A DNA stretch of 32,000 bases, from assembly GCA_016873165.1 (NCBI GenBank), contig VGXV01000001.1, forward strand, positions 93,643 to 125,642, in the 5' to 3' direction. The position numbers and the translations under genes are program-made. This document shows positions 5,204-30,199 of the stretch, in pieces (position 1 is the stretch's first letter; each line of letters opens with the position of its first letter). The DNA comes from Planctomycetota bacterium. GTDB lineage: Bacteria > Planctomycetota > Brocadiia > Brocadiales > Brocadiaceae. The notes under the pieces were generated by a model, which ran no database searches, had not been told where the DNA came from, and saw only the letters and a list, made by a program, of their open reading frames with translations.

Positions 5204-7267
5204 ATGGAAAACATACAAATAAATATTAACCACCTCTGGGTAATTATTGCCGCCTGCATGGTGTTTTTTATGCAGGTCGGGTTTACCTCCTACGAAACCG
5301 GATTTTCTCAGTCTAAAAATGCCATTAGCATTGCACTGAGAAATCTCGTAGTCACCCTTATTTCAACACTCGCATTTTTTTGTGTCAGCTACGGGTTCAT
5401 GTTTGGCAAAAGCTACAGGGGATTGATCGGGACGGATCTGTTCTTCGTAAACGATTTGACATTGCATCCAAATACGTTGTCGTATTCTTTCTTATTTTTC
5501 CAGATGGCCTTTGCCTCCACTGTAGCGACAATATTAACAGGCGCCATAGCAGAACGTTCCGGCTTTATTCCTAATGTGGCGGGCGCCGCTTTCATCATTG
5601 CTGTTATTTATCCGATCTTCGGGCACTGGGCATGGGGAAATCTTTTTTCCACCGATCAGGCCGGATGGTTGAAAAAACTGGGTTTTATTGATTTTGCAGG
5701 CGCAACGGTAGTGCATTCTATCGGAGGCTGGTTTGCCATGGCTGGCGCAATTGTCGTGGGGCCAAGAATCGGAAAATATAACGCCGATGGAACTTCAAAC
5801 CGGATAGGATTGCATAACGTTCCGCTAGTCACCTTAGGAACCTTTTTTCTTTGGTTCGGATGGTTTGGTTTTAACGGAGGGAGTCTTTTAAGGGTTTCTG
5901 CGAACATAGGATTGGTAATTCTGAATACAAACCTGTCTGCCGCTTCTGCCGGACTTTCCGCCCTCATATTTATTTACGTGACGAAAAAAAGGATCGAATC
6001 AGGAAGTCTTTTTACTGCAATACTTGCCGGATTGGTCGCCATAACGGCAAGTTCAAATATGGTCGATCCCGGCAGTGCGGTATATATTGGCCTTATCACC
6101 GGAATACTGGCAATCAATGCGGAAAGATTCATTGAAAGAGTTTTAAAAATTGACGACCCCGTAAGCGCCGTTGCCGTGCATGGAGTAGGCGGGGTAATCG
6201 GCACGCTCTGTGTTGCGCTATTCGCACAGAAATCGTTGCTTTTGACGGAAAACGGGAACAGGATATACCAATTAGGCATACAGGCATTGGGGGTTATCGT
6301 TGCGTTTTCATGGTCATTCGGCATGGGGATGCTTTTTTTCCTGTGCCTTAAGAAACTAACGAAGATACGGGTAACTCCTGAGGAAGAAAAGAGAGGACTG
6401 AATATTGCTGAATATGAGGATGTCGCATCATGGCTCGATTTTATTAAAATAACACGATTGCAGGATTTAAACCTGATACTTGAAAAAAAGGTAAATGAAA
6501 AAACAGAAGACCTGCAACAGGCAAATATAGCTTTGGAAAAGGCAAACAGGCTTAAATCGGAATTTCTGACAACAATGACGCATGAACTCCGCACGCCTTT
6601 AAACGCAATCATCGGTTTCGCTGAAGTATTGCGCGACGAAATTACCGGCGCTCTCAGCAAAGATCAAAAGGAATACGTAAATGATATTCACAGCAGCGGC
6701 CAACACCTGCTCAATATGATTAACAGCATATTGGATCTTTCAAGAATCGAGACGGGAAAGATGGAACTTCATTATGAGGAATTTTGCATAGAAAACGCAG
6801 TGAACGAAACATTAACCATTATCAACGCATATGCTGACAATAAAGGAATCTCCCTTCACACAAGTGTGCCGGATACGCTCCCCCTCCTTACTGCTGACAA
6901 AGCAAAATTTAAACAGATTCTTTATAATCTCTTATCAAATGCGGTTAAATTTACCCCTGAAAAGGGGAAAATCGACATCAGAGCTTTTCAAATAAACCAC
7001 TCTGTACGATGTGAAATAAGCGATACCGGCATCGGTATTACGCCAGAAGCCAAAGAGGGATTGTTCGATGCGTTTCGTCAGGCAGACGGCTCAATAACGA
7101 GAAGATATGAAGGAACAGGGCTTGGTTTGCACCTGACAAAGCGCCTTGTAGAATTACATGGCGGAAAGATATGGGTCGAAAGCGCTCCCGGAAAAGGAAG
7201 CACGTTCTTTTTTACCCTTCCGGTAAATCCATCAGATACTATCCAAAAAAACAATACAATCCCATAG
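5204..7267 (+). CDS. Ammonium transporter (Amt) domain fused to a HisKA/HATPase_c histidine kinase (ammonium sensor kinase)
   Basis: In-frame ATG at 5204 gives 'MENIQININHLWVIIAACMVFFMQVGFTSYETG', a typical Amt N-terminus. Amt blocks 'DFAGATVVHSIGGWFAMAGAIVVGPR' and 'AVHGVGGVIGTL' are present. A coiled-coil linker follows, then H-box 'MTHELRTPLNAIIGF' and ATPase boxes 'LLSNAVKFT', 'DTGIGI', 'GTGLGL'. The GTG start at 5063 in the track is probably an over-extension. Confidence 0.9.
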   Translation: MENIQININHLWVIIAACMVFFMQVGFTSYETGFSQSKNAISIALRNLVVTLISTLAFFCVSYGFMFGKSYRGLIGTDLFFVNDLTLHPNTLSYSFLFFQMAFASTVATILTGAIAERSGFIPNVAGAAFIIAVIYPIFGHWAWGNLFSTDQAGWLKKLGFIDFAGATVVHSIGGWFAMAGAIVVGPRIGKYNADGTSNRIGLHNVPLVTLGTFFLWFGWFGFNGGSLLRVSANIGLVILNTNLSAASAGLSALIFIYVTKKRIESGSLFTAILAGLVAITASSNMVDPGSAVYIGLITGILAINAERFIERVLKIDDPVSAVAVHGVGGVIGTLCVALFAQKSLLLTENGNRIYQLGIQALGVIVAFSWSFGMGMLFFLCLKKLTKIRVTPEEEKRGLNIAEYEDVASWLDFIKITRLQDLNLILEKKVNEKTEDLQQANIALEKANRLKSEFLTTMTHELRTPLNAIIGFAEVLRDEITGALSKDQKEYVNDIHSSGQHLLNMINSILDLSRIETGKMELHYEEFCIENAVNETLTIINAYADNKGISLHTSVPDTLPLLTADKAKFKQILYNLLSNAVKFTPEKGKIDIRAFQINHSVRCEISDTGIGITPEAKEGLFDAFRQADGSITRRYEGTGLGLHLTKRLVELHGGKIWVESAPGKGSTFFFTLPVNPSDTIQKNNTIP

Positions 7268-9460: not shown

Positions 9461-9637
9461 TTCTCTATAAACTAAAGAATTTCAAATGTTTATCAAATTT
9501 TGCTTTAAATGTCAATTATATTTTAAAATACCACTTTAACTCAAATTTTAATTGACCTATGTACGGTTTGTATTTAACATAAATAACTAGTTTTTATTAT
9601 AGTGCCGGTTACCAACTTTTCAATAGGATTTTTAACT

Positions 9638-10111
9638 ATGCCAAATGATATTTTTGTCGATTTAAATACTCTGGACATAAACAACCCCGTCGTCGATATA
9701 GAAGGAATACGTAGCGTTATACCACATCGGTACGAAATGGAACAACTAAGCGGGATTTTACAATTTGACCCAGAACGTAAAATAATCGTTGGCTACAAAG
9801 TTATTTCACAGAATGAATTTTGGGTAAGGGGGCACATACCAAACCGCCCGCTCATGCCAGGGGTAATGATGCTTGAAGCTGCCGCTCAATTATGCACCTA
9901 TTATTACAAGAAAACAACACACGATGATCGTTTTCTTGGTTTTGGCGGGGTAGACAGTGTAAAATTTAGAGGCAAAGTTGTCCCAGGCGATAACCTTATA
10001 CTCATTGCCCGGAACAAAGAATTGAGACCACGAAGGGCAATCTTTGATACTCAAGGAGTCGTCGACGGAAAACTGGTATATGAAGGGGTAGTAATTGGAA
10101 TGGTCGTATAA
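9638..10111 (+). CDS. FabA/FabZ-family (hotdog fold) 3-hydroxyacyl-ACP dehydratase-like protein, orphan copy
   Basis: 'FWVRGHIPNRPLMPGVMMLEAAAQL' contains the catalytic His and Glu context of FabZ. The start is trimmed to the ATG at 9638. Confidence 0.75.
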   Translation: MPNDIFVDLNTLDINNPVVDIEGIRSVIPHRYEMEQLSGILQFDPERKIIVGYKVISQNEFWVRGHIPNRPLMPGVMMLEAAAQLCTYYYKKTTHDDRFLGFGGVDSVKFRGKVVPGDNLILIARNKELRPRRAIFDTQGVVDGKLVYEGVVIGMVV

Positions 10112-16535: not shown

Positions 16536-17951
16536 CTATTCCCTTGGTTTATCAATTATCGAATGAGCGGCCTCAAATAAAGCTTCTGACAATGTCGGAT
16601 GCGGAAATATGGTATTTGATATTTCCTGAATCGTACCTTCTAAAAGAGTATTTAGCGAAACACCCCACATCCATTCACCCACATGAGGTCCCATTGCATG
16701 CACGCCGAGAACTTCACCATATTTTTCCTCTGTAATAATTTTCACAAAACCATCCGATGACTCTCCTTCAATTATTGCCATGCTGTTCGCAGAAAATGGA
16801 AATTTTCCTATTTTCACCTTATATCCCATGCCTTCCGCTTCTTTTTGTGTAAGGCCGATACTCGCTACCTGTGGAAAACTGTAAACGACCCTTGGAATGT
16901 TTTTGCGGTTTGCTACTTGAGTCTCCTTGCCCGCAAGATGGGCTGCCAACATTAAACCTTCGTTCATTGCCTTGTGTGCAAGGAGTGGAGGTCCGGTAAT
17001 ATCGCCAATCGCATAAATTCCGCTTTGGCTTGTCTCCATCACTTCATTCGTCTGCAAATACTTACCGTCAAAATGTAACCCTAGATCCTTTATGCCAGAA
17101 TTATCCAGCTTCGGTGTTCTGCCCATTGCCAGTAATAATAACTCGGCATTTATAAACTCTTTTTTGCCGGAAGCATCTTCTTTTTCTCTTTTAATCTCTG
17201 CCTTAACACCATTCTCTATTTCTACTTTTTCCAAAGAGGTATGGGTCAAGACATCAACCCCTCCCCGTATAAGCAGTTTCTTTGTAGATTCACTGATTTC
17301 CCTATCTTCGGAAGGTAAAACGCACTCTAAAAACTCTACAACTGTAACTTTGGTTCCCAATGCGTTAAAGAGACATGCAAATTCAATCCCCACAGCGCCA
17401 CCTCCAACAATAATCATTGATTTCGGGATTTCTTCCCGAATCAAAATATCATCGCTGGTAAGTATGTATTTTTTGTCGTAAGGAATGGTTTCATGAATGA
17501 GAGGAACAGAACCGGTGGCAAGTACAATATTTTTTGCCTTTATCCGGTTTATTTCTGTTTTATCCCTGAAGAGTAAAACTTCCTGGGGGGAAGCGATATG
17601 CCCTTCGGCTCCGAACACTTCGACGCCATTTTTTTTTAATAAGAATTGAACCCCTTGAAATAATCGTTTAACGATGTATTCTTTGCGACGGTGGAATTGA
17701 GGATAGTTAATATTTAATCCGTTGGCAATAATTCCAAATTCAGTTGCATTGGCACACTTCCTGTAAAGTTCTGCTGAATATAACAGTGTCTTTGTAGGAA
17801 TACACCCCTGATGCAAGCACGTACCGCCAACTTTCTCTTTTTCTACTAAGGCAGTCTTTAAGCCGTACTGAGCGGCTTTTATTGCAGCAACATAACCCGC
17901 TGGCCCACCCCCAATGATGGCAAGATCAAAGGTTGAGTTGCTAACTGGCAA
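16536..17951 (-). CDS. lpdA: Dihydrolipoyl dehydrogenase (E3 component)
   Basis: 'FDLAIIGGGPAGYVAAIKAAQYG', redox-active disulfide 'GGTCLHQGCIPTK', 'IIVGGGAVGIEFA', C-terminal 'HPTLSEAL'. TTG start at 17951 preceded by AAAGGAGGAG. Confidence 0.95.
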   Translation of the reverse strand: MPVSNSTFDLAIIGGGPAGYVAAIKAAQYGLKTALVEKEKVGGTCLHQGCIPTKTLLYSAELYRKCANATEFGIIANGLNINYPQFHRRKEYIVKRLFQGVQFLLKKNGVEVFGAEGHIASPQEVLLFRDKTEINRIKAKNIVLATGSVPLIHETIPYDKKYILTSDDILIREEIPKSMIIVGGGAVGIEFACLFNALGTKVTVVEFLECVLPSEDREISESTKKLLIRGGVDVLTHTSLEKVEIENGVKAEIKREKEDASGKKEFINAELLLLAMGRTPKLDNSGIKDLGLHFDGKYLQTNEVMETSQSGIYAIGDITGPPLLAHKAMNEGLMLAAHLAGKETQVANRKNIPRVVYSFPQVASIGLTQKEAEGMGYKVKIGKFPFSANSMAIIEGESSDGFVKIITEEKYGEVLGVHAMGPHVGEWMWGVSLNTLLEGTIQEISNTIFPHPTLSEALFEAAHSIIDKPRE

Positions 17952-18080
17952 TCACTCCTCCTTTTTCCATGCAAATAATATTACAAAAATCAGAGCTATG
18001 GTTACCACCAAAATAACTTTAGGGCTAACATCCGGAATAATTGATTTCTCCATGGATAAAGACAACAATTTGCCTATCAT
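17952..18080 (-). CDS. Possible 42-aa single-pass membrane peptide translationally coupled to lpdA
   Basis: Minus-strand ATG at 18080, preceded by AAGGAG about 10 nt upstream. It encodes MIGKLLSLSMEKSIIPDVSPKVILVVTIALIFVILFAWKKEE. The TGA stop (17954-17952) abuts the lpdA TTG start. It is too short for the ORF track. Confidence 0.35.
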   Translation of the reverse strand: MIGKLLSLSMEKSIIPDVSPKVILVVTIALIFVILFAWKKEE

Positions 18081-18151
18081 TTTTTATCTTCTCCTTTCCT
18101 GTGCTTTCATTGATATTAACTATTTAAAAAAACCTTATCTATTTTAAGTAT

Positions 18152-18183
18152 AAAGGCACACCCTTTTGATTCGATGTGCCTTT
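18152..18183 (-). terminator. Hairpin downstream of the radical SAM gene (candidate operon terminator)
   Basis: aaaggcaca (18152-18160) pairs with tgtgccttt (18175-18183) across a 14-nt loop, 36 nt after the stop codon. A T8 run on the minus strand lies about 20 nt further downstream rather than adjacent. Confidence 0.35.
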
Positions 18184-18218: not shown

Positions 18219-19676
18219 TTATGTGGCAGCGCTTCCTACCAGTGGTTTTGAAACAGACACGGAACTTGACTTATAACAATCTTTGTAATAGTCACCAGAA
18301 TCATACAGCAATCTAAGGTTTTCCAGTACTTGATCAAACACCTGTCGCCAATCGGAGCCTACACGAAAAGCAAACATGGAGTTTTTTGGATTTTTTGTAG
18401 TATTGATAGAATTTCTAAAACGTTTTCTCAAGTTATCACCAGCATAAATATGGTCGTAAACATATTGCATGCCCTCGATAAAATCCTCCAACGTCATATC
18501 TACCAAACGGTGAACAACATGCGCAGTATCATAATATTCCCAATCATCAGGATAATTTTTTCTGAATATCCTCTTCTCCGAGTCCAACCTTTGATACAAC
18601 TGTGTCTTTGGGAAAGGACAGTTAATTCCGAAAGTCAGAATATCAATGTTGTTTTCCAATATAAAATCGGTCATCCTTTTAAATGAATCTTTGCCGTCTC
18701 CATCAGCCCCGAAAACTACCGATCCCCAGACAACCAGGCCTGCATCGTGTATCTTTTGAATACAATCATAATAGCTATCGGTACCCAGCTTTAAATTTAC
18801 CTTTTTATTCATCTTTTCCAGAACAGTTTCATTGGTAGATTCGATGCCCATAAGCATACCAAAACAACCGCTTTTCGCCATATAATCCAATGTTTCCTTA
18901 TCCTGCGAAATATTTAATGCTGTAAACCCTAACCAGTCTTTTTGAAGATTACGGTCGACCATACCTTTAAAAAGATTTCTGGCTCTTTCGTTTGATCGCT
19001 TCCCATGTCCGTAAAAATTATCCTCTGCCAGCATGAGCCCCTTATAATCAGTTGCCGCCAATTCTTCCAATACGTCTTCGTAAGGTCTTTCCCTGAATTT
19101 TCTCCCCTGAAACGTCGGAACACTGCAAAAATCGCAATAATTCGGACACCCTTTTGTTGTAACAATGGAAGAAAATTTATAATTATATTTTTTCCTCATG
19201 AACTCCCTGTCCGGGAAAACCCTTTTCATCAAATTTAAAGGAGGCAGACCTCCGTCATAAATCTTTTTTAACTTTCCTGCTTCAAAGTCTTTTATTACCT
19301 GAGGCCATACTTCCTCCGCTTCACCAATAAAAACAGCGTCCACGTATTTGGAAGCTTCTTCAGGCACAACTGAAGCGTGTATCCCTCCCATAATTACAGG
19401 CATCCCCTTCTCTTTACATACTTTAGCAATTTTGTATGCTCTGGGTGATTGGTAGGTTACGGCCGTAATACAAACAAGGTCTACTGGCGCAAATGTAAGT
19501 TCCTCATTATCGTCAATTGCCAAATCAATATTTTCATCAATTACATCAAATTCCCAATCGCCAGGCGTAAGGGATTTAATGTAAGCAAGGTTCAGTGGCA
19601 TCTGAACAATTACCGTAATACTCTCCTCTCCATGCCTCCCCGGCTTATGCGGATTAATGAGCATCATTTTTTTCAT
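18219..19676 (-). CDS. B12-binding-domain radical SAM protein (class B rSAM)
   Basis: The N-terminal ~140 aa are cobalamin-binding-like ('VDLVCITAVTYQSPRAYKIAKVCKEKGMPVIMGGIH'). The CxxxCxxC cluster motif is 'GCPNYCDFCSV' (Cys177/181/184, nt 19125-19148). A GGAGG SD lies 7 nt upstream of the ATG, inside the upstream gene. Confidence 0.85.
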   Translation of the reverse strand: MKKMMLINPHKPGRHGEESITVIVQMPLNLAYIKSLTPGDWEFDVIDENIDLAIDDNEELTFAPVDLVCITAVTYQSPRAYKIAKVCKEKGMPVIMGGIHASVVPEEASKYVDAVFIGEAEEVWPQVIKDFEAGKLKKIYDGGLPPLNLMKRVFPDREFMRKKYNYKFSSIVTTKGCPNYCDFCSVPTFQGRKFRERPYEDVLEELAATDYKGLMLAEDNFYGHGKRSNERARNLFKGMVDRNLQKDWLGFTALNISQDKETLDYMAKSGCFGMLMGIESTNETVLEKMNKKVNLKLGTDSYYDCIQKIHDAGLVVWGSVVFGADGDGKDSFKRMTDFILENNIDILTFGINCPFPKTQLYQRLDSEKRIFRKNYPDDWEYYDTAHVVHRLVDMTLEDFIEGMQYVYDHIYAGDNLRKRFRNSINTTKNPKNSMFAFRVGSDWRQVFDQVLENLRLLYDSGDYYKDCYKSSSVSVSKPLVGSAAT

Positions 19677-19680
19677 ATTT

Positions 19681-21138
19681 CTACCTCCAATTCTCCAAAA
19701 TTAAATTAGCAACACCCCATCCTGAAGAAACAACAGCACATATTCCAGGGCCAGGCCTTGTCCAATGACCCGTTAAATAAAGACCACCTACCGGCGTTGT
19801 CGGCGAAAGCCTTTGGTCCCATATTTGATCGGTACTTACGGCCCATCCATAAGCAGCCCCATTCGTATTCAACGTGTAACGCTCCAGGGTTTTCGGAGTA
19901 GCCGCTTCTATTACTTCTATATATTTTTTTATATCAGGCAAATAACCTTCCAACCTCTCCAAAGTGTTTGTAATCATATTTTGTTTTAATAGTTTCCAAT
20001 CCGTTACGTTTTTATAAAAATTATCCTTCTTATATACCACCAATGATACTATTTGCTTATTTTGGGGAGCAAGGGTCGGACATATTTTGGTTGGCACAGA
20101 AATATACAACCATTCATTCTCCATAGAATCATAATCCGAGCCAGATAAATAAAACCCTCTTTTTAAATTACCTAAATCTATCCCTTTACCAATCCCCAGA
20201 TATAAAAGGAAAAAAGTACAACTCTCCTTCATCCCTTCGATTTTTTTACGATACACCACATCAACATCATTATCATCCATCAAATCATAAAATGTCTGCC
20301 TTGCATCAATGTTTGATACAACTACGCGAGAATGTATCTCCTTGCCATTATCTAATTTAACGCCTGCAATAAATTTTTTGTTTATTAATATTTTTTTGAC
20401 TTTGGATGATAGCATAACGTGCCCGCCAAAATCAATAAATTTCCTAAAAATTGCATTTGCAAACTCTTGCGTTCCTCCTTTTGGGAAATAGGCGCCATCT
20501 TTGAGATAATTAATCATCATTTGAGACATAGCAAGCGCAGATGCCTTCGATGGCGGCAAACCGATATAGCCCCATTGCCCCGAAAGAACCATTTTTAGCT
20601 CACTATCATCAAAAAAATGATCAAGCATCATCCCATACGTCATGTCTTTATATTTTTCTATAATCTGACTTTTTTCATTATTAAATGTAGCGCGATAAAG
20701 TTTTATGAAATCCTGGAAAAAAATCTTAATGTTATCACTTTCATGCGGATATCTTGTTTGTAAACGCAACTGATATTCATCTAAATCGGCAGGAATTTCA
20801 ATGCTGAATGAAGGAAAAACTAAATTGTCCATAGGATCTAAATGATAAAAATCCATCTCAATCCCAAGTGTTTTAAAACAACGTCCAACTACGCTCCATT
20901 TCCCACACCCTCCGATGTGATGGACAGCGGCATCAAAATGAAATCCTTTTCTTTTAAACGAAGTACAGTATCCGCCCGGAATAAAATGCTGCTCGACAAG
21001 AAGTACTTTTTTCCCACTTTTGGAAAGGAATGCGGCACATATAAGACCAGCAATACCTGCACCGATTACAATAACATCGTAAAAAGAGTATAATGCATCA
21101 ATTTTTGTGGATTTTACAGGAGAATTGTCTGATAGCAT
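19681..21138 (-). CDS. FAD-dependent oxidoreductase of the phytoene desaturase (CrtI)/amine oxidase family
   Basis: N-terminal dinucleotide fold 'YDVIVIGAGIAGLICAAFLSKSGKKVLLVEQHFIPGGY'; C-terminal 'GLYLTGHWTRPGPGI' typical of CrtI-like proteins. Confidence 0.8.
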   Translation of the reverse strand: MLSDNSPVKSTKIDALYSFYDVIVIGAGIAGLICAAFLSKSGKKVLLVEQHFIPGGYCTSFKRKGFHFDAAVHHIGGCGKWSVVGRCFKTLGIEMDFYHLDPMDNLVFPSFSIEIPADLDEYQLRLQTRYPHESDNIKIFFQDFIKLYRATFNNEKSQIIEKYKDMTYGMMLDHFFDDSELKMVLSGQWGYIGLPPSKASALAMSQMMINYLKDGAYFPKGGTQEFANAIFRKFIDFGGHVMLSSKVKKILINKKFIAGVKLDNGKEIHSRVVVSNIDARQTFYDLMDDNDVDVVYRKKIEGMKESCTFFLLYLGIGKGIDLGNLKRGFYLSGSDYDSMENEWLYISVPTKICPTLAPQNKQIVSLVVYKKDNFYKNVTDWKLLKQNMITNTLERLEGYLPDIKKYIEVIEAATPKTLERYTLNTNGAAYGWAVSTDQIWDQRLSPTTPVGGLYLTGHWTRPGPGICAVVSSGWGVANLILENWR

Positions 21139-21144
21139 AAAACT

Positions 21145-22383
21145 CTATTTAAATTTTGATACTATCAAAGAAGAGCTGTTTCCTAAACGTGAGATAGAAT
21201 TTATAAGGACGTTTTTGACTGGAACAGTTGCCGCTTTTTCTACAACCAAACCAAGATCACATGCCGGATCGGGTTCCTTATAGTTGATTATCGGAGGAAC
21301 AGTATGTGTTTTGATAGACATCACTGCCGCCACTGTCTGCAATGATCCGGATGCATCAAGACATTCGCCTGTCATGGATTTGATAGCAGTTACAGGAATG
21401 AGTTTCGCGCGCATACCGAAGACCTCTTTTAATGCCTTTACTTCCATTATATCGCCATAGACTCCGGAATATGCATTGGCGGATATATAAGAAATGTCAT
21501 GAAGCGTCAGTTTTGCATCTTCCAGGGCATTTTTGATAGCCCTGATGCTGCCGTCTGCTTGATAATCTTTGCTCATTGCCATTTTCGGATCAAAAGCGGT
21601 TCCATACCCCTTAACTTCAGCATAGATGTTCGCATTCCTCTTCAAAGCATCCTCCAGAGTTTCAAGAATAACCAATGCAGAGCCTTCACCAAGGATCATA
21701 CCATTACGCCTTTTATCAAAAGGTGCGCTGATTTCCAGAGTACCGCTTTTACTTCCTGCCAGTATTTTTGAATTGTGCGCTCCCCAAAAGATATCATGAC
21801 CCAAACCATAAACTCCCCCTGCAATTACCGCCTTCACCCTCCCCATCTTCAGGAAATCTGACGCGTAAATGATCGCGTCAATGCTGCTTGTTACGCCATT
21901 TGAAATTGTAGTATTTAACCCTGTCGCTTTGCAAAAAATTGAAGCACGGCTAGCAGGAGCGTTTATCACTGTGTTAGGAAAGTCCATAGGATTTACATAA
22001 TTTGGACCTTCCCGTAACGACTGAAAATCAAAAGAACTTATACTATCTATACTGCCATACGTAGAACCAACAACAATCCCTAATTCATCTTCGCTATATG
22101 TGTTATTTTCAAGATTTGCATCCTTGATTGCCAGGCATGTCGCAGAAGATACCAGGAGAGACGTTCTATCGATATGGCGAATGCCTTTTTTCCCCAAATA
22201 AACTGTGGAGTCGAAATTTGTAATTTCCCCCGCCAGTTTGCTATTAAAATTACTTACATCAAACAACGTTATCGGTTTAATACCTGATACACCGTTTATC
22301 AAATTTTGCCAAAAAACATCTTTCGTTTCTCCGAGAGGTGAAATGACAGATATTCCTGTAATGACAATCCTCGTTTCGCCCAT
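21145..22383 (-). CDS. Ketosynthase-like protein lacking the Cys-His-His triad (KS-beta / chain-length-factor-like partner)
   Basis: Full-length thiolase-fold KS homolog, colinear with the upstream KS. The aligned catalytic positions read Val ('ISNGVTSS' vs 'PTACAAG'), Asn ('ISANAYSG' vs 'ISAHGTGT') and Glu ('SMTGECLD' vs 'SMIGHTMG'). Confidence 0.8.
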   Translation of the reverse strand: MGETRIVITGISVISPLGETKDVFWQNLINGVSGIKPITLFDVSNFNSKLAGEITNFDSTVYLGKKGIRHIDRTSLLVSSATCLAIKDANLENNTYSEDELGIVVGSTYGSIDSISSFDFQSLREGPNYVNPMDFPNTVINAPASRASIFCKATGLNTTISNGVTSSIDAIIYASDFLKMGRVKAVIAGGVYGLGHDIFWGAHNSKILAGSKSGTLEISAPFDKRRNGMILGEGSALVILETLEDALKRNANIYAEVKGYGTAFDPKMAMSKDYQADGSIRAIKNALEDAKLTLHDISYISANAYSGVYGDIMEVKALKEVFGMRAKLIPVTAIKSMTGECLDASGSLQTVAAVMSIKTHTVPPIINYKEPDPACDLGLVVEKAATVPVKNVLINSISRLGNSSSLIVSKFK

Positions 22384-22485
22384 TTATAAACCTCTTCTTA
22401 ATCTTATACGCTTCAACTTGTGGAAAAACCGATATAAATACAATTACTTTTTTAACAAGGATACTATTGATAAAAACGCACCTAT

Positions 22486-23706
22486 TTAACCCGTGAATTT
22501 TTTTATCACCAAACAGCTGTTATTGCCTCCAAAGGCATGAGCATTGTTCAATGCGATGTTTACAACTTGTTTTCTCATCACGTTGGGAACATAATCCAAA
22601 TCACACTCCGGATCTGGAGTAACATAGTTTATCGTAGGAGGAATAATGTCATTTTGTACCACTAATGCACAGGCAATCGATTCTATAACACTTGCAGCCC
22701 CCATCGTATGCCCGATCATTGATTTTATTGAGCTAATTGCCAGATGGCCTGGCTTGTCGCCAAAGACCTTCTTTATTGAAATTGTTTCTGCCTTGTCATT
22801 TGCCGGAGTTCCTGTGCCATGAGCGCTTATGTATTGAACATCTTCAGGCCTGAGATTTGAGTACTTCAACGCCTTTGCCATTGCAGAAACTACTCCTTCG
22901 CCATCCGGATGCGGTATCGTGATATGATATGCATCGCAACTCAAACCATATCCGATAATTTCGGCATAGATATTTGCATTTCTTTTCTCTGCGCATTCCA
23001 GCGATTCTAAAACAAGTATTCCCGCACCTTCACCCACCAGCATACCTTTTCTATTCTTATCAAATGGCTGGCATATTTCAGGTGCTATTGCTCCTAAGCG
23101 GGCAAAACCGGTAAAAGCAACTTTAGAAAAGGGGTCCGACCCTCCGGCAACCATCGCATCAACCCTTCCGAATCTGATTAAATCATACGCATAACCAACC
23201 GCGTAATTCCCTGCCGCACAGGCAGTAGGTATTATGGTATTGGGGCCTTTTAACCCAAATTCAATCGCAATGTTGGCGGGAATATTATTACACGGATGCT
23301 TCAAAAACAAACCGGGGTCTACTTTATCCTCACCGTCTCTATGCCTGATATGATTTACCTTTTCTAATATTTGTATTTCACCGGCAGTTGTGCCTACAGA
23401 AACTCCCATTCTTTCCAAGTTAACCTTGGATAAATCAATTTTTGCGTCGTCTAACGCAAGCTTCGTAGCCGCTATGGCAAATTGTGATCCCTTACCAATC
23501 TCTTTTAAAACACCGTTCTTAATATAATCTGAATAGTTAAAATTTTTTACCTCACACCCTCTGTGCACTCTGTATCCGGAAGTATCTATGCAAGCCACTT
23601 CATCCACACCGGATTTACCTGCAATAAGCGCACTCCAAAAAACATCTTTCCCCGAACCAATAGGGGTTATCATTCCCACACCAGTTATTACAACACGTTT
23701 ATTCAT
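22486..23706 (-). CDS. fabF: 3-oxoacyl-ACP synthase II-type ketosynthase (catalytically complete)
   Basis: '[15 protein letters not shown]', active-site '[10 protein letters not shown]', '[15 protein letters not shown]', '[14 protein letters not shown]', '[14 protein letters not shown]'. The ATG at 23706 is preferred. An alternative TTG at 23718 directly abuts the fabZ stop. Confidence 0.88.
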
Positions 23707-23718
23707 GATATTTTTCAA

Positions 23719-24168
23719 TTAAACTAACGAACTTTTCTCCGCAATCCCAAAAGTCAAAGCCGCTTTAGCTGCAATCTTTTCCTGTACTTTCACTACAGAC
23801 TGAACTATAGCGCCTTTCGATACAATTTTCTCAACAATAACTTCTATAGTAAGTTGATCACCAGGAATGACGGGTTTTGTAAATCTGGCATTATTAACTG
23901 ACGCCAGCAGAAAAACCGTATCTCCATCGTTTTTGGAAGGAAGGCTTTTTTTGAACAAAATTATTGATGCTTGCGCCATCGCCTCAATGATTAACACACC
24001 GGGCATGATGGCAAAATCAGGGAAATGGCCAACAAAGACAGGTTCATTACCGGAAATATTTTTTACGCAAACGATCCTCTTGCCTTCTTCAAACTCAATC
24101 GCTCTATCAATAAATATGAAGGGATATTTTTGAGGAAGAAGATTCCGTATTTCCTCAAAAAGTATCAT
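23719..24168 (-). CDS. fabZ: 3-hydroxyacyl-ACP dehydratase FabZ, operon-dedicated copy
   Basis: 'LPQKYPFIFIDR', 'NEPVFVGHFPDFAIMPGVLIIEAMAQ' (catalytic His and Glu present). The start is trimmed to the ATG at 24168. Confidence 0.85.
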   Translation of the reverse strand: MILFEEIRNLLPQKYPFIFIDRAIEFEEGKRIVCVKNISGNEPVFVGHFPDFAIMPGVLIIEAMAQASIILFKKSLPSKNDGDTVFLLASVNNARFTKPVIPGDQLTIEVIVEKIVSKGAIVQSVVKVQEKIAAKAALTFGIAEKSSLV

Positions 24169-24214: not shown

Positions 24215-24478
24215 TTACTTCTCACTCTCCGCCAGAACCGATTTTGTCAAACCAATCGTGGCACTTAACGAGGTAATATCTACAAGTTTTTCTTCGGGAA
24301 TTTGCACTTTAAATTTCTTTTCTATGAGAGCCAAAATCTCAAGCGCCAAAAGAGAATCTATCTCTAAGTCTTGAAAAAAATTCGCATCCCTTTTCTCCCA
24401 GATTTCTTTTTCATCCATCTCTGTAACCTCAGCAACTATAGAGGTTACACCCTTTTCAATCTCTTCGTCGTTCAACAT
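24215..24478 (-). CDS. acpP: Acyl carrier protein (dedicated)
   Basis: 87 aa and acidic, with phosphopantetheine attachment motif 'FFQDLEIDSLLALEI' (Ser42, nt 24353-24355). AGGAGG lies 5 nt upstream of the ATG. Confidence 0.85.
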   Translation of the reverse strand: MLNDEEIEKGVTSIVAEVTEMDEKEIWEKRDANFFQDLEIDSLLALEILALIEKKFKVQIPEEKLVDITSLSATIGLTKSVLAESEK

Positions 24479-24608
24479 AATCCTCCTTAATAATTTTTGC
24501 CTTATAAAATCCCTACGTCCATCCCATCATTTGCGAAATCTAAAGGAGAATCATGGTAGCAGACACAAATTATATTGTCAATAATATTCTTTCTGCGAAT
24601 GATAAAAA

Positions 24609-26990: not shown

Positions 26991-27295
26991 ATTAATATCA
27001 ATATAAAGAAATAACTTCCCGATCATCTCTATAATTATTTTTGAATATGTAAAATTAAGGTTGTATTTTCTTCAATTATCTATTATTATAAATTCCATGT
27101 TGTGAATTATTTCGTCAATAAAATAAGGTGTAATTGATAATGATTGCATTGTGCAGCCATAGGCATTCAAGCGATACGAATCAAAATACCGCATTAAAAA
27201 AATCCTTCCCATTATCACAATTCAAACATTTCTGGATTAATTTTTACAAAACATCTTTTTACCTTATATGGGATTTTTTTTCCCGTTATACATCC

Positions 27296-28711
27296 ATGCT
27301 ATTTATTCTACTACTAGCAACCATTATTTTAAAATCAATTGCAATAGCAGGTGATCCGGAGAATTCTGTCTTTGGATATCATCCCGCGGCAGTATTAGAA
27401 AATGGCTATTCTGACAACGGTTTGTTTGATGCCGAATATATAGGCGTAAAGTGGACACGCCAGGCAACACCTGCTTATTGGTCAAACGTGCAACCAGATC
27501 TAAATGCCGATGAGTACGATTTTGATTTTTATGATAAACAGTGGGGTAATGTTCCGACAAGTATGTGCATTATGGGATGCCTTGCTCCGGGAAGCGGACG
27601 AACATTAGAAGATTCCTGGTATCCAACTAATGAGGAACAATATATCGCATTTGTAAAAGCAACTGTGGAACGTTACGATGGAGATGGAATTGACGATATG
27701 CCAGGTTTGCAGAACCCGATTAAATACTGGCAGGTGGGAAACGAGTTTGGAGGCTCCGGATGGTCGGATTTTGCAGACTTACAAAAAATATCTTATCAGG
27801 CAATTAAGGAGACATGTCCTGATTGTACTGTGTTGCTTGGCGGCATAGCAAGTTTATCTTTTGATTACATGTCCCGTTTTGATGAATATTACGGATCCGT
27901 TATTGAAGAATTGAACGGCAATTTCATAGATATTATCGATATTCATTGGTATGAAGAAGCTGACGGCGGTTATCGTTTGAAAGACAATACAACCGGTGAT
28001 GACATTTTGGACCATGTTCGTGATTTTCTGGTTAAGAGCGGCTTTCCCGAAGATATGCCTATTTGGTCAACAGAAATGGGAACTTATTCAGGCCAACCTG
28101 AAGGACTACCTTACCAAACAGAGCACCAGCATGCTACAGACAATTTTAAACGTTATATTTACGGTCTATCAAGAGGCATAGCAAAAATTTTCCAATCCTA
28201 TGGAATGATGGAAGGTTGGCAAGATGAAGATGATACTTTTGACCATACAGGTTTAATATATGAAGGGAAAAATTCCAGCGACAGAGGTCTTGGAATAAAA
28301 AAACTCGGATATTATTCTTATAAAAAAATGACTGAAACATTAGAAGGCGCCGATTGGTCAACATTAGAAATGTTACGTGATGGTACCGACACGGATTTAC
28401 TTTATCTTTTCAGGATTATAAAAGATAATATCCCCATCTACATTGCATGGTGGGACTATTTTGACGATCCGGATTATTTCCAGGGAAATACAAAAGATAT
28501 ACGTTTAAGAGGTATTCCGGGAAACATCATTTCCATTACAAAGGTTGTTCCGGAATATGTATATGGAGAAGAAATAACCGATTATGATACGGCTTTCACC
28601 GTTTATACCAGCCCCATACGAAGGGGTATTGCAAAAATCTCTCTAGATGAAACACCAGTTTTCATAACACTGTCTCAAGACTTCGATCCATCACGGAGAA
28701 AAAAAAAGTAA
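27296..28711 (+). CDS. Secreted clan GH-A (TIM-barrel glycoside hydrolase)-like protein, paralog 1
   Basis: The internal Met gives signal-like 'MLFILLLATIILKSIAIAG'. 'YWQVGNEF' is an acid/base NE motif and 'PIWSTEMG' is a nucleophile Glu context. The track start at 27134 adds 54 non-conserved residues. The function call is weaker than the gene call. Confidence 0.6.
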   Translation: MLFILLLATIILKSIAIAGDPENSVFGYHPAAVLENGYSDNGLFDAEYIGVKWTRQATPAYWSNVQPDLNADEYDFDFYDKQWGNVPTSMCIMGCLAPGSGRTLEDSWYPTNEEQYIAFVKATVERYDGDGIDDMPGLQNPIKYWQVGNEFGGSGWSDFADLQKISYQAIKETCPDCTVLLGGIASLSFDYMSRFDEYYGSVIEELNGNFIDIIDIHWYEEADGGYRLKDNTTGDDILDHVRDFLVKSGFPEDMPIWSTEMGTYSGQPEGLPYQTEHQHATDNFKRYIYGLSRGIAKIFQSYGMMEGWQDEDDTFDHTGLIYEGKNSSDRGLGIKKLGYYSYKKMTETLEGADWSTLEMLRDGTDTDLLYLFRIIKDNIPIYIAWWDYFDDPDYFQGNTKDIRLRGIPGNIISITKVVPEYVYGEEITDYDTAFTVYTSPIRRGIAKISLDETPVFITLSQDFDPSRRKKK

Positions 28712-28780
28712 AAACAAACAGTTATCGAATTTCAAAACCCTTTGCACATTGAATTCAGCAAATCATTCAGGTACATTGCC

Positions 28781-30199
28781 ATGTCTAAAATTACATCATT
28801 TTTCTCTCTCTTTAAATTGACTGTACCATTTATTATTTTAACAACATCCTCAATATCCACAGCAGCAACCACCGAAGAATCGGTGTTCGGATATCATCCT
28901 GCCGGTATATTTGAAGATGGTTATCAAAATAACGGCTACGAGGATGCAGAGTTTATAGGGATTAAATGGACCCGTCAGGCAACACCGGCATACTGGTCGA
29001 TAGTCCAGCCAGACATTGAAAAAGAAGAATATGACTTCGAATTTCATGACGAACAATGGGGTTCAGTGCCTGTAAGCATTTCCATAATGGGAGATTTGGC
29101 GCCGGGAAAAGACCGCACCGTAGAAAATTCATGGCAACCGATAGATGAAGATGCATATGTTGCATTCGTGAAAACAACTGTTGAACGTTATGACGGAGAC
29201 GGCATAGACGATATGCCCGGCCTCAAAAACCCTATAAAATACTGGCAAGTATGTAATGAATTCGGAGATTCCGATTGGTCTGATTTTGCAGATTTACAGC
29301 GAATTACCTACCTTGCCATCAAAGAAGCATGTTCCGAATGCTACGTTTTATTTGCAGGCATTCAAAGCCTCTCCTACGATTACATGCCTCGTTTTGAAGA
29401 GAAATATGGGCCCGTCATTAAAGAGTTAAATGGCAAGTACCTTGATATAATAGATTTCCACTGGTATGAAGAAGGCAACGGAGGGTACAAACTTAAGGAT
29501 AATACGTCCGGCAATGATATTCTCGATTATATCCGCAATTACTTTACAGAAAGTGGTTTTTCAGAAAACATTCCCATCTGGTCAACGGAAATGGGCACGT
29601 ATTCCGGTGAACCTGAAGGTTTGCCCTATCAAACGGAACACGAACAGGCAATAGACAACTTTAAACGCTACATTTACGGCCTCTCCAGAGGAATATCTAA
29701 AATCTTCCAATCGTATGGGTTGATGGAGGGTTGGCATGATGAAGATACAATATTCGATCATACAGGATTAATCTACGAGGGAAAAAATTCTGACGACCTC
29801 GGTTTAGGCGTAAAAAAACTTGGATATTATTCTTATAAAAAAATGACTGAGATGCTTACTAACGCTAATTTCTCGACATTAGAAATGGTACATGACGGCA
29901 CCCAATCCGATCTGGTCTATGTTTTCAAAGTAGAAAAGGAAAATGAACCACTTTACATTGCATGGTGGGATTATTTTGATGATCCAACCTATTCTTCCCG
30001 CGCAAGAAAACGAGTAAACATAAATGGTTTTGACGGAAGATACGTAACTATTACCAAAGTTGTTCCTGATTTTGAGTACGGGAAAGAAGTTGATGATTAT
30101 CATTCCGCATTTACCGTTAATACACGTCGTGTACAGAGAGGAAATGTCAGAATCTCTCTGGATGAAACACCCATCTTTATAACTATCTCGAACAATTAG
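28781..30199 (+). CDS. Secreted clan GH-A-like protein, paralog 2
   Basis: The ATG at 28781 gives 'MSKITSFFSLFKLTVPFIILTTSSISTAA'. It is colinear with paralog 1 over the whole mature length, with no obvious indels and roughly 70% identical residues by eye. It has 'YWQVCNEF' and 'PIWSTEMG'. Confidence 0.6.
   Translation: MSKITSFFSLFKLTVPFIILTTSSISTAATTEESVFGYHPAGIFEDGYQNNGYEDAEFIGIKWTRQATPAYWSIVQPDIEKEEYDFEFHDEQWGSVPVSISIMGDLAPGKDRTVENSWQPIDEDAYVAFVKTTVERYDGDGIDDMPGLKNPIKYWQVCNEFGDSDWSDFADLQRITYLAIKEACSECYVLFAGIQSLSYDYMPRFEEKYGPVIKELNGKYLDIIDFHWYEEGNGGYKLKDNTSGNDILDYIRNYFTESGFSENIPIWSTEMGTYSGEPEGLPYQTEHEQAIDNFKRYIYGLSRGISKIFQSYGLMEGWHDEDTIFDHTGLIYEGKNSDDLGLGVKKLGYYSYKKMTEMLTNANFSTLEMVHDGTQSDLVYVFKVEKENEPLYIAWWDYFDDPTYSSRARKRVNINGFDGRYVTITKVVPDFEYGKEVDDYHSAFTVNTRRVQRGNVRISLDETPIFITISNN

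What the first reader, a model, noticed from the sequence alone, without database searches (positions are those of the whole stretch)
21145..23718. KS / dead-KS pair: the second ketosynthase has lost Cys, His and His (Val/Asn/Glu), unlike the Gln-type chain-length factor
Seen in sequence: the two adjacent thiolase-fold proteins are colinear. The upstream one keeps 'TACAAG', 'HGTGT' and 'GHTMG'. The downstream one reads 'SNGVTSS', 'ANAYSG' and 'GECLD' at the aligned positions (Val164 at nt 21892-21894). Established knowledge: type II PKS and aryl-polyene systems use KS-alpha/KS-beta heterodimers, in which the inactive subunit shapes the chain-length/substrate tunnel. Classical CLFs carry Gln at the Cys position to prime by decarboxylation. 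Inference: this is a heterodimeric KS whose beta subunit is purely structural. That would suit control of a defined, unusual acyl chain, with no decarboxylative priming by the beta subunit.
Basis: partly seen in the sequence, partly recalled or inferred. Interest (0 to 1): 0.68.

Follow-up and report, generated by a model that had tools for sequence, protein, structure and literature searches.

The report
Anammox ketosynthase with dead partner

Summary
On the minus strand, 22486-23706 encodes a 406-aa ketosynthase (KS) with Cys163/His296/His333. 21145-22383 encodes a colinear 412-aa paralogue (33% identical) with Val164/Asn303/Glu340 at those positions. The Val164 codon is at 21892-21894, as stated.

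The pair sits in a six-gene operon: ACP, FabZ, KS, dead KS, phytoene-desaturase-like oxidoreductase, B12-radical SAM. This is anammox "Cluster I" (KustE3603-3608), the candidate ladderane-lipid cluster. The window comes from a Kuenenia-related Brocadiales genome.

The two proteins are 87% and 82% identical to chains B and C of PDB 9S5H/9S5I, the Brocadia fulgida amxFabF2/amxFabFmut heterodimer. The Val/Asn/Glu substitutions were tabulated for Kuste3606 in 2009 (PMC2649909). A May 2026 preprint (10.64898/2026.05.19.726425) reports several results:
- The two proteins co-purify.
- They are active only together.
- They form a KS/chain-length-factor-like heterodimer.
- Residues Phe135 and Val139 of the dead subunit line the substrate tunnel. 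Both are conserved here.

My own comparisons add three points:
- The "triad" positions of the dead subunit drift across the family, while the tunnel motif stays invariant.
- KS and dead-KS trees mirror each other.
- Fused KS-dead-KS proteins exist.

Verdict: real, correctly interpreted, already known.

The parts
24215..24478 (-). Acyl carrier protein (amxACP orthologue), first gene of the operon. It carries a DSL phosphopantetheine-attachment motif and has an AAGGAGG ribosome-binding site upstream.
   Evidence: Pfam PP-binding 1.6e-13. Sequence and RBS. 73-96% identical ACP at the same position in all Brocadiia loci.
23719..24168 (-). FabZ-type 3-hydroxyacyl-ACP dehydratase (amxFabZ orthologue), 149 aa.
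   Evidence: Pfam FabA 2.2e-25. NCBIfam NF000582 FabZ 151.4 bits, above the cut-off of 113. Gene call of 149 aa on identical contigs.
22486..23706 (-). Active ketosynthase (amxFabF2 orthologue), 406 aa. Cys163 (23218-23220), His296 (22819-22821), His333 (22708-22710), Lys, and gate Phe392.
   Evidence: 86.7% identical to PDB 9S5H chain B. NCBIfam NF005589 439 bits, above 387. TIGR03150 fabF equivalog 459.5, below 493.75.
22384..22485 (-). 102-nt untranslated spacer between KS and dead KS, with its own ribosome-binding site (AAGAAGAGG) before the dead-KS ATG.
   Evidence: No Rfam family. No convincing terminator.
21145..22383 (-). Dead ketosynthase (amxFabFmut orthologue; CLF-like subunit), 412 aa. 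Val164 (21892-21894), Asn303 (21475-21477) and Glu340 (21364-21366) replace Cys/His/His. Lys335 is retained. Arg sits at the gate-Phe position.
   Evidence: 81.7% identical to PDB 9S5H chain C. Below both FabF NCBIfam cut-offs. Same residue set as Kuste3606 in Table 2 of PMC2649909.
21967..21981 (-). Codons for Phe135-Pro-Asn-Thr138-Val139 of the dead KS. This is the helix-loop-helix segment that lines the partner's substrate tunnel.
   Evidence: Identical to B. fulgida residues Phe135, Thr138 and Val139. Invariant in all 80 loci, including Omnitrophota at about 45% identity. Role shown by structure and mutagenesis in the preprint.
19681..21138 (-). Phytoene-desaturase-like FAD oxidoreductase (KustE3607 orthologue). 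It starts 6 nt after the dead-KS stop.
   Evidence: Pfam Amino_oxidase/NAD_binding_8. crtI_fam 154 bits, below the cut-off of 238. Colinear in Brocadiia loci.
18219..19676 (-). B12-binding radical SAM enzyme (KustE3608 orthologue), last gene of the operon.
   Evidence: Pfam Radical_SAM plus B12-binding. 71-96% identical in Brocadiia loci.
18152..18183 (-). Inverted repeat AAAGGCACA...TGTGCCTTT (14-nt loop) followed by a T-rich stretch, just after the radical-SAM stop. Possible end of the operon.
   Evidence: Seen in the sequence. Not reported by the terminator scan, whose loop limit is 8. Function inferred only.
24553..24581 (-). Sigma-70-like promoter match (TTGACA-17-TACCAT, with TG) about 75 nt upstream of the ACP start.
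   Evidence: 10 of 12 matches. The number of such sites in the region is not above shuffled expectation, so this is only a candidate.

Best explanation
The two genes are the orthologues of amxFabF2 (KustE3605) and amxFabFmut (KustE3606). These are the ketosynthase pair of the anammox 'Cluster I' operon (ACP-FabZ-KS-dead KS-phytoene-desaturase-like-B12 radical SAM), the candidate ladderane-lipid pathway. The genome here is Kuenenia-related.

Proposed mechanism:
- The two FabF-derived proteins assemble into an obligate heterodimer instead of the usual FabF homodimer.
- All chemistry happens at Cys163/His296/His333 of the active subunit: acyl transfer to Cys, then malonyl-ACP decarboxylation and Claisen condensation.
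- The dead subunit (Val164/Asn303/Glu340) has no nucleophile and no decarboxylating His pair.
- The dead subunit supplies the helix-loop-helix segment (Phe135, Thr138, Val139) that closes and dimensions the active subunit's acyl tunnel. It also contributes part of the ACP docking surface, so it works like a chain-length factor.
- The complex can self-prime by decarboxylating malonyl-ACP to acetyl-ACP and condensing it to acetoacetyl-ACP. It appears to prefer short (C6-C8) chains.

Shown here: identity, anatomy, the residue substitutions, the conservation pattern, synteny, and co-divergence of the two subunits.
Shown by others on 82-87% identical orthologues: heterodimer formation, activity only together, tunnel architecture, and mutational effects.
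Inferred: that this exact pair behaves the same way, and that the product feeds ladderane lipid synthesis.
For: (1) Sequence and alignment: the triad is intact in the KS and replaced by Val/Asn/Glu in the paralogue.

(2) Orthology: the proteins are 86.7% and 81.7% identical to PDB 9S5H/9S5I chains B and C. The six-gene order is identical in about 60 Brocadiia loci. The exact proteins occur on lake-metagenome contigs. The nearest named genomes are Ca. Kuenenia hertensis and Kuenenia sp. (90-94%).

(3) Literature: Val163/Asn298/Tyr300/Gly302/Lys328/Glu333/Gln342/Arg392 were tabulated for Kuste3606 in 2009. The window protein has the same set. The 2026 preprint reports co-purification, no activity of either subunit alone, malonyl-ACP decarboxylation plus acetoacetyl-ACP formation by the complex, 2.6 A and 2.1 A crystal structures, tunnel residues from the dead subunit, and Phe135/Val139/Phe394 mutants that shift chain-length preference.

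(4) Conservation pattern:
- In 115 close homologues the former Cys position is V, I, T or E, and the first His position is N or C.
- In the wider family these positions are F/M/A/Q and G/S/A/T respectively.
- Phe135, Thr138 and Val139 are invariant in all 80 loci, down to 44% identity. Selection therefore acts on the interface and tunnel, not on a catalytic centre.

(5) Co-divergence: in an NJ tree the dead-KS clade and the partner-KS clade show the same branching order (anammox, then delta-MAG, then Omnitrophota).

(6) Rosetta-stone evidence: many ~800-aa proteins fuse an N-terminal Cys-His-His KS to a C-terminal dead KS.

(7) An AlphaFold2 monomer of the dead KS is confident in the thiolase core. 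It has pLDDT below 50 in residues 109-164 and 207-229, the segments the preprint finds ordered only in the heterodimer. The best fold matches are FabFs.
Against: - No experiment or multimer model was done on this window's own proteins. Heterodimer formation is transferred from orthologues.
- The key source is a non-peer-reviewed preprint. In it, chain elongation beyond acetoacetyl-ACP was not observed, chain-length preference comes from a non-physiological crosslinking assay, and decarboxylation was not assigned to a subunit by mutagenesis.
- The link of Cluster I to ladderanes remains circumstantial.
- The dead subunit can crystallise as a homodimer (S. brodae).
- Lys335 and Glu340 are invariant in the dead pocket, and the dead subunit keeps a tunnel of its own. 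A purely structural role does not obviously require either.
- The low pLDDT of interface segments may simply reflect a shallow 29-sequence alignment.
- The NJ tree has no support values.
Confidence: 0.9

Rival explanations
1. The dead KS is an enzyme with a different chemistry. This was Rattray et al.'s 2009 suggestion. It would recruit or couple a separately made (ladderane) moiety into the fatty-acid pathway, using its altered active site independently of the neighbouring KS.
For: It is intact, conserved in every Brocadiia genome examined and reported as expressed. It keeps Lys335, an acidic residue at the second-His position and its own tunnel, which binds PEG in the crystal. The proposal is in PMC2649909.
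Against: - There is no nucleophile at the Cys position, and that position is not conserved (V/I/T/E in anammox; F/M/A elsewhere).
- The first-His position and the gate position also drift.
- No activity and no crosslinking were seen for the isolated protein.
- Its tunnel has no access to a catalytic triad.
Confidence: 0.03
2. The dead subunit is more than a ruler. Its tunnel or pocket would pre-organise or park an intermediate, or dock the desaturase or radical-SAM enzyme. That would make it a 'cyclisation factor' in the sense proposed for AmcG in cispentacin biosynthesis.
For: - KS partners with roles beyond length control have been proposed (AmcF-AmcG, PMC10698177).
- The active tunnel is bifurcated, and the dead subunit retains a separate tunnel.
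- Lys335, Glu340 and the GDxME motif are invariant in the dead pocket.
- Tight operon coupling to the desaturase-like gene (6 nt) and the radical SAM gene (4 nt).
Against: - No data show binding of anything but PEG.
- Entrance (gate) residues of the dead pocket vary: R, D, Y, P, Q, S or A.
- A Lys-Glu pair is most simply a buried salt bridge.
- Crosslinking data are explained by a length-filter role.
- The same dead-KS family occurs in Omnitrophota and delta-proteobacterial MAGs, which are not known to make ladderanes.
Confidence: 0.06
3. The second gene is a decaying duplicate with no function. The adjacency to an active KS is a remnant of tandem duplication.
For: Loss of all three catalytic residues. 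It scores below the NCBIfam FabF cut-offs.
Against: - Full-length intact ORF.
- 59-92% identity maintained across all Brocadiia lineages, with about 150 invariant columns.
- Invariant tunnel motif across phyla.
- Mirrored phylogeny with the partner.
- Fused KS-dead-KS forms exist.
- The active KS is inactive without it.
Confidence: 0.01

Closest known systems
amxFabF2/amxFabFmut (amxFabF-het) of anammox Cluster I: KustE3605/KustE3606, Broful02171/02170, PDB 9S5H/9S5I (Rattray 2009, PMC2649909; Granatino et al. 2026 preprint 10.64898/2026.05.19.726425)
   Same: Orthologous. 86.7% and 81.7% identity to the crystallised pair. Same six-gene operon order. Same Cys/His/His versus Val/Asn/Glu (plus Tyr, Gly, Gln, Arg) residue sets. 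Same tunnel residues Phe135, Thr138 and Val139, and same gate Phe.
   Different: Only species-level sequence divergence: a Kuenenia-related lake-metagenome organism, 90-94% identical to Ca. Kuenenia hertensis. The lineage-specific spacer between the two genes is about 100 nt here, against roughly 13-60 nt in Brocadia and Jettenia loci.
Classical aromatic type II PKS KS-alpha/CLF (e.g. actinorhodin ActI-ORF1/ORF2, PDB 1TQY)
   Same: An active KS plus an inactive thiolase-fold paralogue encoded next to it. An obligate heterodimer whose inactive subunit delimits the acyl tunnel.
   Different: - The CLF carries Gln at the Cys position and primes by decarboxylating malonyl-ACP (established knowledge: Bisang et al. 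1999). Here that position is Val, and both His residues are gone.
- The dead KS is far closer to FabFs (E 1e-72 to 1e-59) than to any PKS chain (act KS 1e-40). No CLF chain appears among the 60 best of its 149 PDB matches.
- The partner enzymes here are FAS-like (FabZ, ACP), and the genes are separated by 102 nt.
Highly reducing type II PKS KS/CLF: Iga11/Iga12 (ishigamide, PDB 6KXD)
   Same: A heterodimeric KS/CLF acting on reduced, non-aromatic chains. Iga11 is among the best PDB matches of the window's KS (1.3e-100), and is the closest structural homologue of amxFabF2 according to the preprint. Iga12 also lacks the canonical triad.
Aryl-polyene ApeO/ApeC
   Same: A KS/CLF heterodimer in a FAS-like cluster of Gram-negative bacteria (PMC8358021).
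   Different: [quoted passage not shown] The window's dead KS is full length, with both Pfam ketoacyl-synthase domains.
AmcF/AmcG (cispentacin type II PKS-like KS plus 'cyclisation factor')
   Same: A KS whose partner lacks all functional motifs, is needed as a heterodimer partner, and works with a FabZ-like enzyme (PMC10698177). Both window KS proteins give sub-threshold hits to the AmcF model: 231 and 164 bits against a cut-off of 325.
   Different: Below the family cut-offs. AmcG lacks secondary-structure elements of CLFs, whereas the dead KS here is a complete FabF-like fold. No evidence of a cyclisation role.
Canonical homodimeric FabF (KAS II)
   Same: Same fold and length. The best non-self sequence and structure matches of both proteins are FabFs.
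   Different: FabF is a symmetric homodimer with two active sites. Here one subunit is dead. Neither protein reaches the TIGR03150 FabF equivalog cut-off.

Membership tests
Anammox Cluster I amxFabF2/amxFabFmut pair | High sequence identity to the characterised or crystallised pair | tested here: met
   86.7% (KS) and 81.7% (dead KS) identity to PDB 9S5H chains B and C. E-values 3.9e-242 and 2.8e-224.
Anammox Cluster I amxFabF2/amxFabFmut pair | Operon order ACP-FabZ-KS-dead KS-phytoene-desaturase-like-B12 radical SAM | tested here: met
   Pfam assignments. The same colinear order occurs in the Brocadiia loci wherever the contig is long enough, and on identical metagenome contigs.
Anammox Cluster I amxFabF2/amxFabFmut pair | The dead subunit carries the Kuste3606 residue set (Val/Asn/Tyr/Gly/Lys/Glu/Gln/Arg at FabF positions 163/298/300/302/328/333/342/392) | tested here: met
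   Window residues V164, N303, Y305, G307, K335, E340, Q349 and the gate-position Arg, compared with Table 2 of PMC2649909.
Anammox Cluster I amxFabF2/amxFabFmut pair | Tunnel-lining residues of the dead subunit (Phe135, Thr138, Val139) and the gate Phe of the KS | tested here: met
   Identical residues at the aligned positions. Invariant across 80 loci.
Anammox Cluster I amxFabF2/amxFabFmut pair | Physical heterodimer; activity only when both subunits are present | not testable with these tools
   Shown for the K. stuttgartiensis and B. fulgida orthologues in the preprint. Here there is only indirect support: mirrored phylogeny, fused homologues, and low-confidence interface segments in the monomer model.
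Classical type II PKS chain-length factor (KS-beta) | Loss of the active-site Cys, and a gene adjacent to an active KS | tested here: met
   Val164 replaces Cys. The gene lies directly downstream of the KS.
Classical type II PKS chain-length factor (KS-beta) | Gln at the Cys position (decarboxylative priming by the CLF) | tested here: not met
   Val here. V/I/T/E in 115 anammox homologues. Gln appears only in a few distant representatives. Both His residues needed for decarboxylation are also absent.
Classical type II PKS chain-length factor (KS-beta) | Sequence membership of the CLF clade | tested here: inconclusive
   The top 60 of 149 PDB matches are FabF/FabB or KS chains, with none labelled CLF. 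FabFs score about 1e-72 against act KS at 1e-40. The best Foldseek matches are FabFs.
FabF (KAS II), NCBIfam TIGR03150 equivalog / NF005589 subfamily | Score at or above the curated cut-off | tested here: not met
   Dead KS: 330.3 against 493.75, and 313.3 against 387. Active KS: 459.5 against 493.75 (fails the equivalog), but 439.4 against 387 (passes the subfamily).
FabF (KAS II) | Cys-His-His catalytic triad | tested here: not met
   Not met for the dead KS (Val/Asn/Glu). Met for the upstream KS.
Aryl-polyene ApeC-type CLF | A truncated partner of about half the KS size, with a single thiolase half | tested here: not met
   The dead KS is 412 aa with both the PF00109 and PF02801 domains. 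ApeC is described in PMC8358021.

The most novel reading that the evidence does not exclude
The dead subunit may be more than a passive length ruler. Three features point that way: an invariant Phe-Pro-Asn-Thr-Val tunnel motif, an invariant Lys335/Glu340 pair in the former active site, and a separate ligand-accessible tunnel on the dead subunit's side.

These could make it a templating or holding subunit, a 'cyclisation factor' in the sense proposed for AmcG. In that role it would pre-organise or park the ACP-bound intermediate for the co-operonic desaturase-like and B12-radical-SAM enzymes.

The wider FabF-derived dead-KS family would then be an unrecognised class of such partners. I found that family in Omnitrophota, in delta-proteobacterial and Planctomycetia MAGs, and as fused KS-dead-KS proteins.
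Probability: 0.07. Interest if true: 0.75.

Novelty: already known. Interest (0 to 1): 0.2.

Why it matters
Ladderane lipids, built from fused cyclobutane rings, are among the strangest natural lipids, and their biosynthesis is unsolved. The KS/dead-KS pair is the chain-building core of the best candidate gene cluster. It is described as the first chain-length-factor-type partner found in a fatty-acid-like pathway.

That significance already belongs to published work: the 2009 sequence analysis and the 2026 preprint with its structures. This window adds another orthologue, from a Kuenenia-related lake organism.

My comparisons add modest context:
- The dead subunit's tunnel motif is invariant across phyla, while its former catalytic positions drift.
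- The two subunits have co-diverged.
- Fused versions exist.
- The family reaches well beyond anammox bacteria.

That context is useful for anyone asking whether Cluster I is really ladderane-specific.

Tried and rejected
(1) A 'Val-His-His' homologue (P0057) looked like an evolutionary intermediate. A pairwise alignment shows it is a chimera: dead-KS N-terminal about 255 residues plus active-KS C-terminal about 155 residues, on a 2.5-kb contig. I rejected it as an assembly or recombination artefact.

(2) The search for related loci with an 18-sequence alignment failed because no stretch was conserved enough. A 6-sequence alignment worked.

(3) The representative search did not return the anammox cluster's own representative as a full-length hit. 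The apparent representative is a truncated or chimeric 457-aa protein, P0223. The list was therefore used only for the wider family.

(4) The listing of cluster members gave almost no organism names.

(5) The AlphaFold2 monomer of the dead KS was only moderately confident (pLDDT 67.8). The Foldseek PDB library (entries to 2026-04-08) does not contain 9S5H/9S5I, so it could only confirm the FabF-like fold. No multimer prediction is available.

(6) An Rfam scan of the window found nothing. The promoter and terminator scan is not above the shuffled expectation.

(7) I considered that the cluster's radical SAM would match NCBIfam TIGR04072 'rSAM_ladder_B12'. It does not: 88.6 bits against a cut-off of 360.

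(8) Locus L048 is labelled Thermodesulfobacteriota, but its identity pattern and Thr/Cys/Glu residues are typical of Scalindua. I treat it as probable mis-binning, not as a non-anammox occurrence.

(9) I did not build an explicit tree including actinomycete CLFs, Iga12 and ApeC, because no such sequences were retrievable within the session.
Full report
**1. Checking the observation**

The coordinates 21145-23718 span two adjacent ORFs on the minus strand.
- The upstream ORF (22486..23718 from a TTG) most likely starts at the ATG at 23706, giving 406 aa. Gene calls on identical metagenome contigs use that start. It contains TACAAG, HGTGT and GHTMG.
- The downstream ORF (21145..22383, 412 aa) contains SNGVTSS, ANAYSG and GECLD.
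- Codon positions are as follows. KS: Cys163 23218-23220, His296 22819-22821, His333 22708-22710.

The equivalence of these positions is supported by three alignments:
- A HMMER alignment to B. subtilis FabF places Val/Asn/Glu under the catalytic Cys/His/His.
- A global alignment of the two window proteins (33% identity, colinear) does the same.
- A 122-sequence MAFFT alignment does the same.

Both proteins match both ketoacyl-synthase Pfam domains with E-values between 1e-24 and 1e-42.

**2. What it is**

The pair sits in a six-gene minus-strand operon:
- ACP (24215-24478)
- FabZ (23719-24168)
- KS
- dead KS
- a phytoene-desaturase-like FAD oxidoreductase (19681-21138)
- a B12-binding radical SAM enzyme (18219-19676)

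This is the anammox "Cluster I" (KustE3603-3608), the leading candidate for ladderane-lipid biosynthesis.

The window's KS and dead KS are 86.7% and 81.7% identical to chains B and C of PDB 9S5H/9S5I. By their identity to the sequences described in the preprint, I take these to be its Brocadia fulgida heterodimer structures.

The exact proteins occur on JGI lake-metagenome contigs. The nearest named genomes are Ca. Kuenenia hertensis and a Kuenenia sp. MAG: 94%/90% and 92%/91% for KS/dead KS. An ammonium-transporter/histidine-kinase fusion elsewhere in the window fits a Kuenenia-type genome.

**3. What is already published**

Rattray et al. 2009 (PMC2649909, Table 2) list Kuste3606 as Val163/Asn298/Tyr300/Gly302/Lys328/Glu333/Gln342/Arg392 and conclude it cannot perform normal FabF chemistry. 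The window protein has this same set.

Granatino et al. (bioRxiv, May 2026, 10.64898/2026.05.19.726425) report the following:
- The two proteins co-purify.
- Neither is active or crosslinks to ACP alone.
- Together they decarboxylate malonyl-amxACP and form acetoacetyl-ACP.
- Crystal structures show a heterodimer stabilised by charge-complementary helix-loop-helix motifs.
- The only tunnel that reaches a catalytic triad is lined by Phe135, Thr138 and Val139 of the dead subunit.
- Phe135, Val139 and gate-Phe mutants change the chain-length preference, which in wild type is C8 and C6 over C16.
- ACP contacts both subunits.

All the named residues I could map are identical in the window.

One nuance concerns priming. 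The complex does prime by decarboxylation, presumably at the active subunit. The dead subunit lacks both the Gln of classical CLFs and the two His residues needed for decarboxylation.

**4. Independent evidence gathered here**

(a) Residue conservation.
- Among 115 full-length close homologues, all Brocadiales, the three positions read VNE (43), VCE (38), TCE (20), INE (6), ENE (6) and END (1), never Cys or His. The single 'VHH' case is a chimera.
- In the wider family these positions read F/M/A/E/Q, then G/S/A/N/T/C, then E or D.
- Lys335 and the motif Phe135-Pro-Asn-Thr-Val139 are invariant in all 80 loci, down to 44% identity.
- Selection therefore acts on the tunnel and interface, not on a catalytic centre. 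This is the signature expected of a chain-length-factor-like subunit.

(b) Synteny. All Brocadiia loci with enough sequence keep the same six-gene order.

(c) Co-divergence. An NJ tree (no support values) separates a dead-KS clade from a partner-KS clade. Both have mirrored internal topology: anammox, then delta-proteobacterial MAG, then Omnitrophota. This indicates one old duplication and co-inheritance.

(d) Fusions. Many ~800-aa proteins fuse a Cys-His-His KS to a dead KS, including one from a Helarchaeota MAG. This is a Rosetta-stone argument for physical association.

(e) Structure prediction.
- An AlphaFold2 monomer of the dead KS (mean pLDDT 67.8) is confident in the core.
- It falls below 50 in residues 109-164 and 207-229, the segments that the preprint finds disordered without the partner. 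A shallow alignment could also explain this.

**5. Comparison with known families**

- Function: the pair works like a type II PKS KS/CLF heterodimer.
- Sequence: it is not a member of the classical CLF family. The defining Gln is absent, and the dead KS is far closer to FabFs (about 1e-72) than to PKS chains (act KS 1e-40). No CLF chain appears among its 60 best PDB matches.
- FabF membership: the dead KS fails both NCBIfam FabF cut-offs. The active KS passes only the subfamily model.
- ApeC: it differs from ApeC, which is half-sized.
- AmcF/AmcG: it scores below the cut-off for the cispentacin AmcF model.
- Gene spacing: unlike many PKS KS/CLF gene pairs, the two genes are not translationally coupled here (the comparison rests on my own knowledge). 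A 102-nt spacer with its own ribosome-binding site separates them, while the other junctions in the operon are 4-46 nt.

**6. Beyond anammox**

Dead-KS homologues with the same tunnel motif occur outside Brocadiia. They are found in Omnitrophota and Planctomycetia MAGs, arranged as dead KS followed by ACP-FabZ-KS and a desaturase-like gene.

A 'delta proteobacterium' MAG locus carries ACP-FabZ-KS-dead KS-desaturase-like followed by three radical SAM genes and further KS/dead-KS pairs. Rattray et al. had already noted similar clusters in Desulfotalea, Geobacter and Pelobacter. This is an extension rather than a discovery, but it qualifies the statement that the cluster is unique to ladderane producers.

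**7. Open point**

Lys335 and Glu340 are invariant in the dead pocket, while the neighbouring former catalytic and gate positions drift. The reason is unexplained. A buried salt bridge that stabilises the dead site is the simplest reading. A real ligand site on the dead subunit's own tunnel, which binds PEG in the crystal, is not excluded.

**8. Verdict**

The system is already known: residues since 2009, heterodimer and structures since 2026. Interest for the scan is low (0.2). The residual novelty lies only in the family-wide conservation pattern and the possible extra role of the dead subunit.

Noticed in passing
window 22384-22485 (-): A 102-nt untranslated spacer lies between the KS stop and the dead-KS start, with its own ribosome-binding site (AAGAAGAGG). 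The other operon junctions are 4-46 nt. The long spacer is shared with the Kuenenia loci (about 96-100 nt) but is much shorter in the Brocadia and Jettenia loci. No Rfam hit and no clear hairpin.
   Followed up: partly
P0057 (ENA contig, 2.5 kb), homologue of the dead KS: This is the only homologue reading Val-His-His at the triad positions. It is a chimera: the N-terminal ~255 residues are dead-KS-like and the C-terminal ~155 residues are active-KS-like (HGTGT, GHTMG). It is probably an assembly or recombination artefact between the two adjacent paralogues, not an evolutionary intermediate.
   Followed up: yes
L080 1-17212 (MAG 'delta proteobacterium MFD04944.bin.1.34', 381-kb contig); L070 ('Actinomycetota' MAG) is similar: A non-Brocadiia locus with a Cluster-I-like order. 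ACP-FabZ-KS-dead KS-desaturase-like is followed by three B12-type radical SAM genes (61, 54 and 45% identical to the window's). Two further KS/dead-KS pairs are present. The dead KS reads Ala/Gly/Glu and keeps the FPNTV motif.
   Followed up: partly
L067, L071-L073, L075-L079, L081-L084 (Omnitrophota and 'Planctomycetia' MAGs): A stand-alone dead KS (44-49% identical; Phe/Asn-or-Ser/Glu; invariant Phe135, Thr138, Val139). It is followed 1-2.5 kb downstream by ACP, usually FabZ and an active KS, and often a desaturase-like gene. This looks like a related but rearranged system of unknown product.
   Followed up: partly
P0122, P0124 and ~50 other representatives; P0124 cluster includes NVM52546.1 from a Candidatus Helarchaeota MAG: Proteins of ~800 aa that fuse an N-terminal Cys-His-His KS to a C-terminal dead KS with very variable 'triad' residues. 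These are natural fusions of the two subunit types, one of them in an Asgard-archaeon MAG.
   Followed up: no
window 17952-18183 (-): An inverted repeat AAAGGCACA/TGTGCCTTT (18152-18183) lies right after the radical SAM stop. It is followed by a 42-codon ORF (17952-18080) encoding a single-transmembrane-helix peptide, which abuts the start of the Pyr_redox_2 dehydrogenase-like gene (16536-17951). The mini-ORF is also called on the identical JGI and Logan contigs.
   Followed up: partly
window 5063-7267 (+): An ammonium transporter fused to HisKA and HATPase domains (734 aa). This resembles the ammonium-sensor histidine kinase described from Kuenenia (from memory) and is consistent with the anammox origin of the window.
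   Followed up: no
window 27134-28711 (+) and 28742-30199 (+): Two large adjacent ORFs (525 and 485 aa) with no Pfam or NCBIfam match. They are conserved in position on the identical metagenome contigs. They lie just beyond the isocitrate and malate dehydrogenase genes that flank the lipid operon.
   Followed up: partly
window 9602-10111 (+): A second, stand-alone FabZ/ApeI-like dehydratase (169 aa). It scores below both FabZ NCBIfam cut-offs (106 against 155; 103 against 113). It sits next to a HAD hydrolase and the ribosomal L13/S9 genes. Brocadia and Jettenia loci also carry a distant FabZ-like gene a few kb downstream of Cluster I.
   Followed up: no
window 18219-19676 (-): The cluster's B12-radical SAM enzyme scores only 88.6 bits on NCBIfam TIGR04072 ('rSAM_ladder_B12', cut-off 360). 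The curated 'ladderane' radical SAM model therefore describes a different paralogue.
   Followed up: no
Preprint 10.64898/2026.05.19.726425, Results, versus window and loci L005-L069: The preprint's text says amxFabFmut is encoded 'just upstream' of amxFabF2. In this window, and in every Brocadiia locus examined that includes both genes, the transcription order is KS (amxFabF2) then dead KS (amxFabFmut).
   Followed up: yes
L005, L008, L009, L011, L012, L017, L020, L025, L037, L039, L074 (deep-branching Brocadiia, e.g. Ca. Subterrananammoxibius): In these lineages the dead KS carries Glu at the former Cys position (Glu/Asn/Asp-or-Glu) and Tyr at the gate position. This differs from the Val/Thr types discussed in the literature.
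   Followed up: partly
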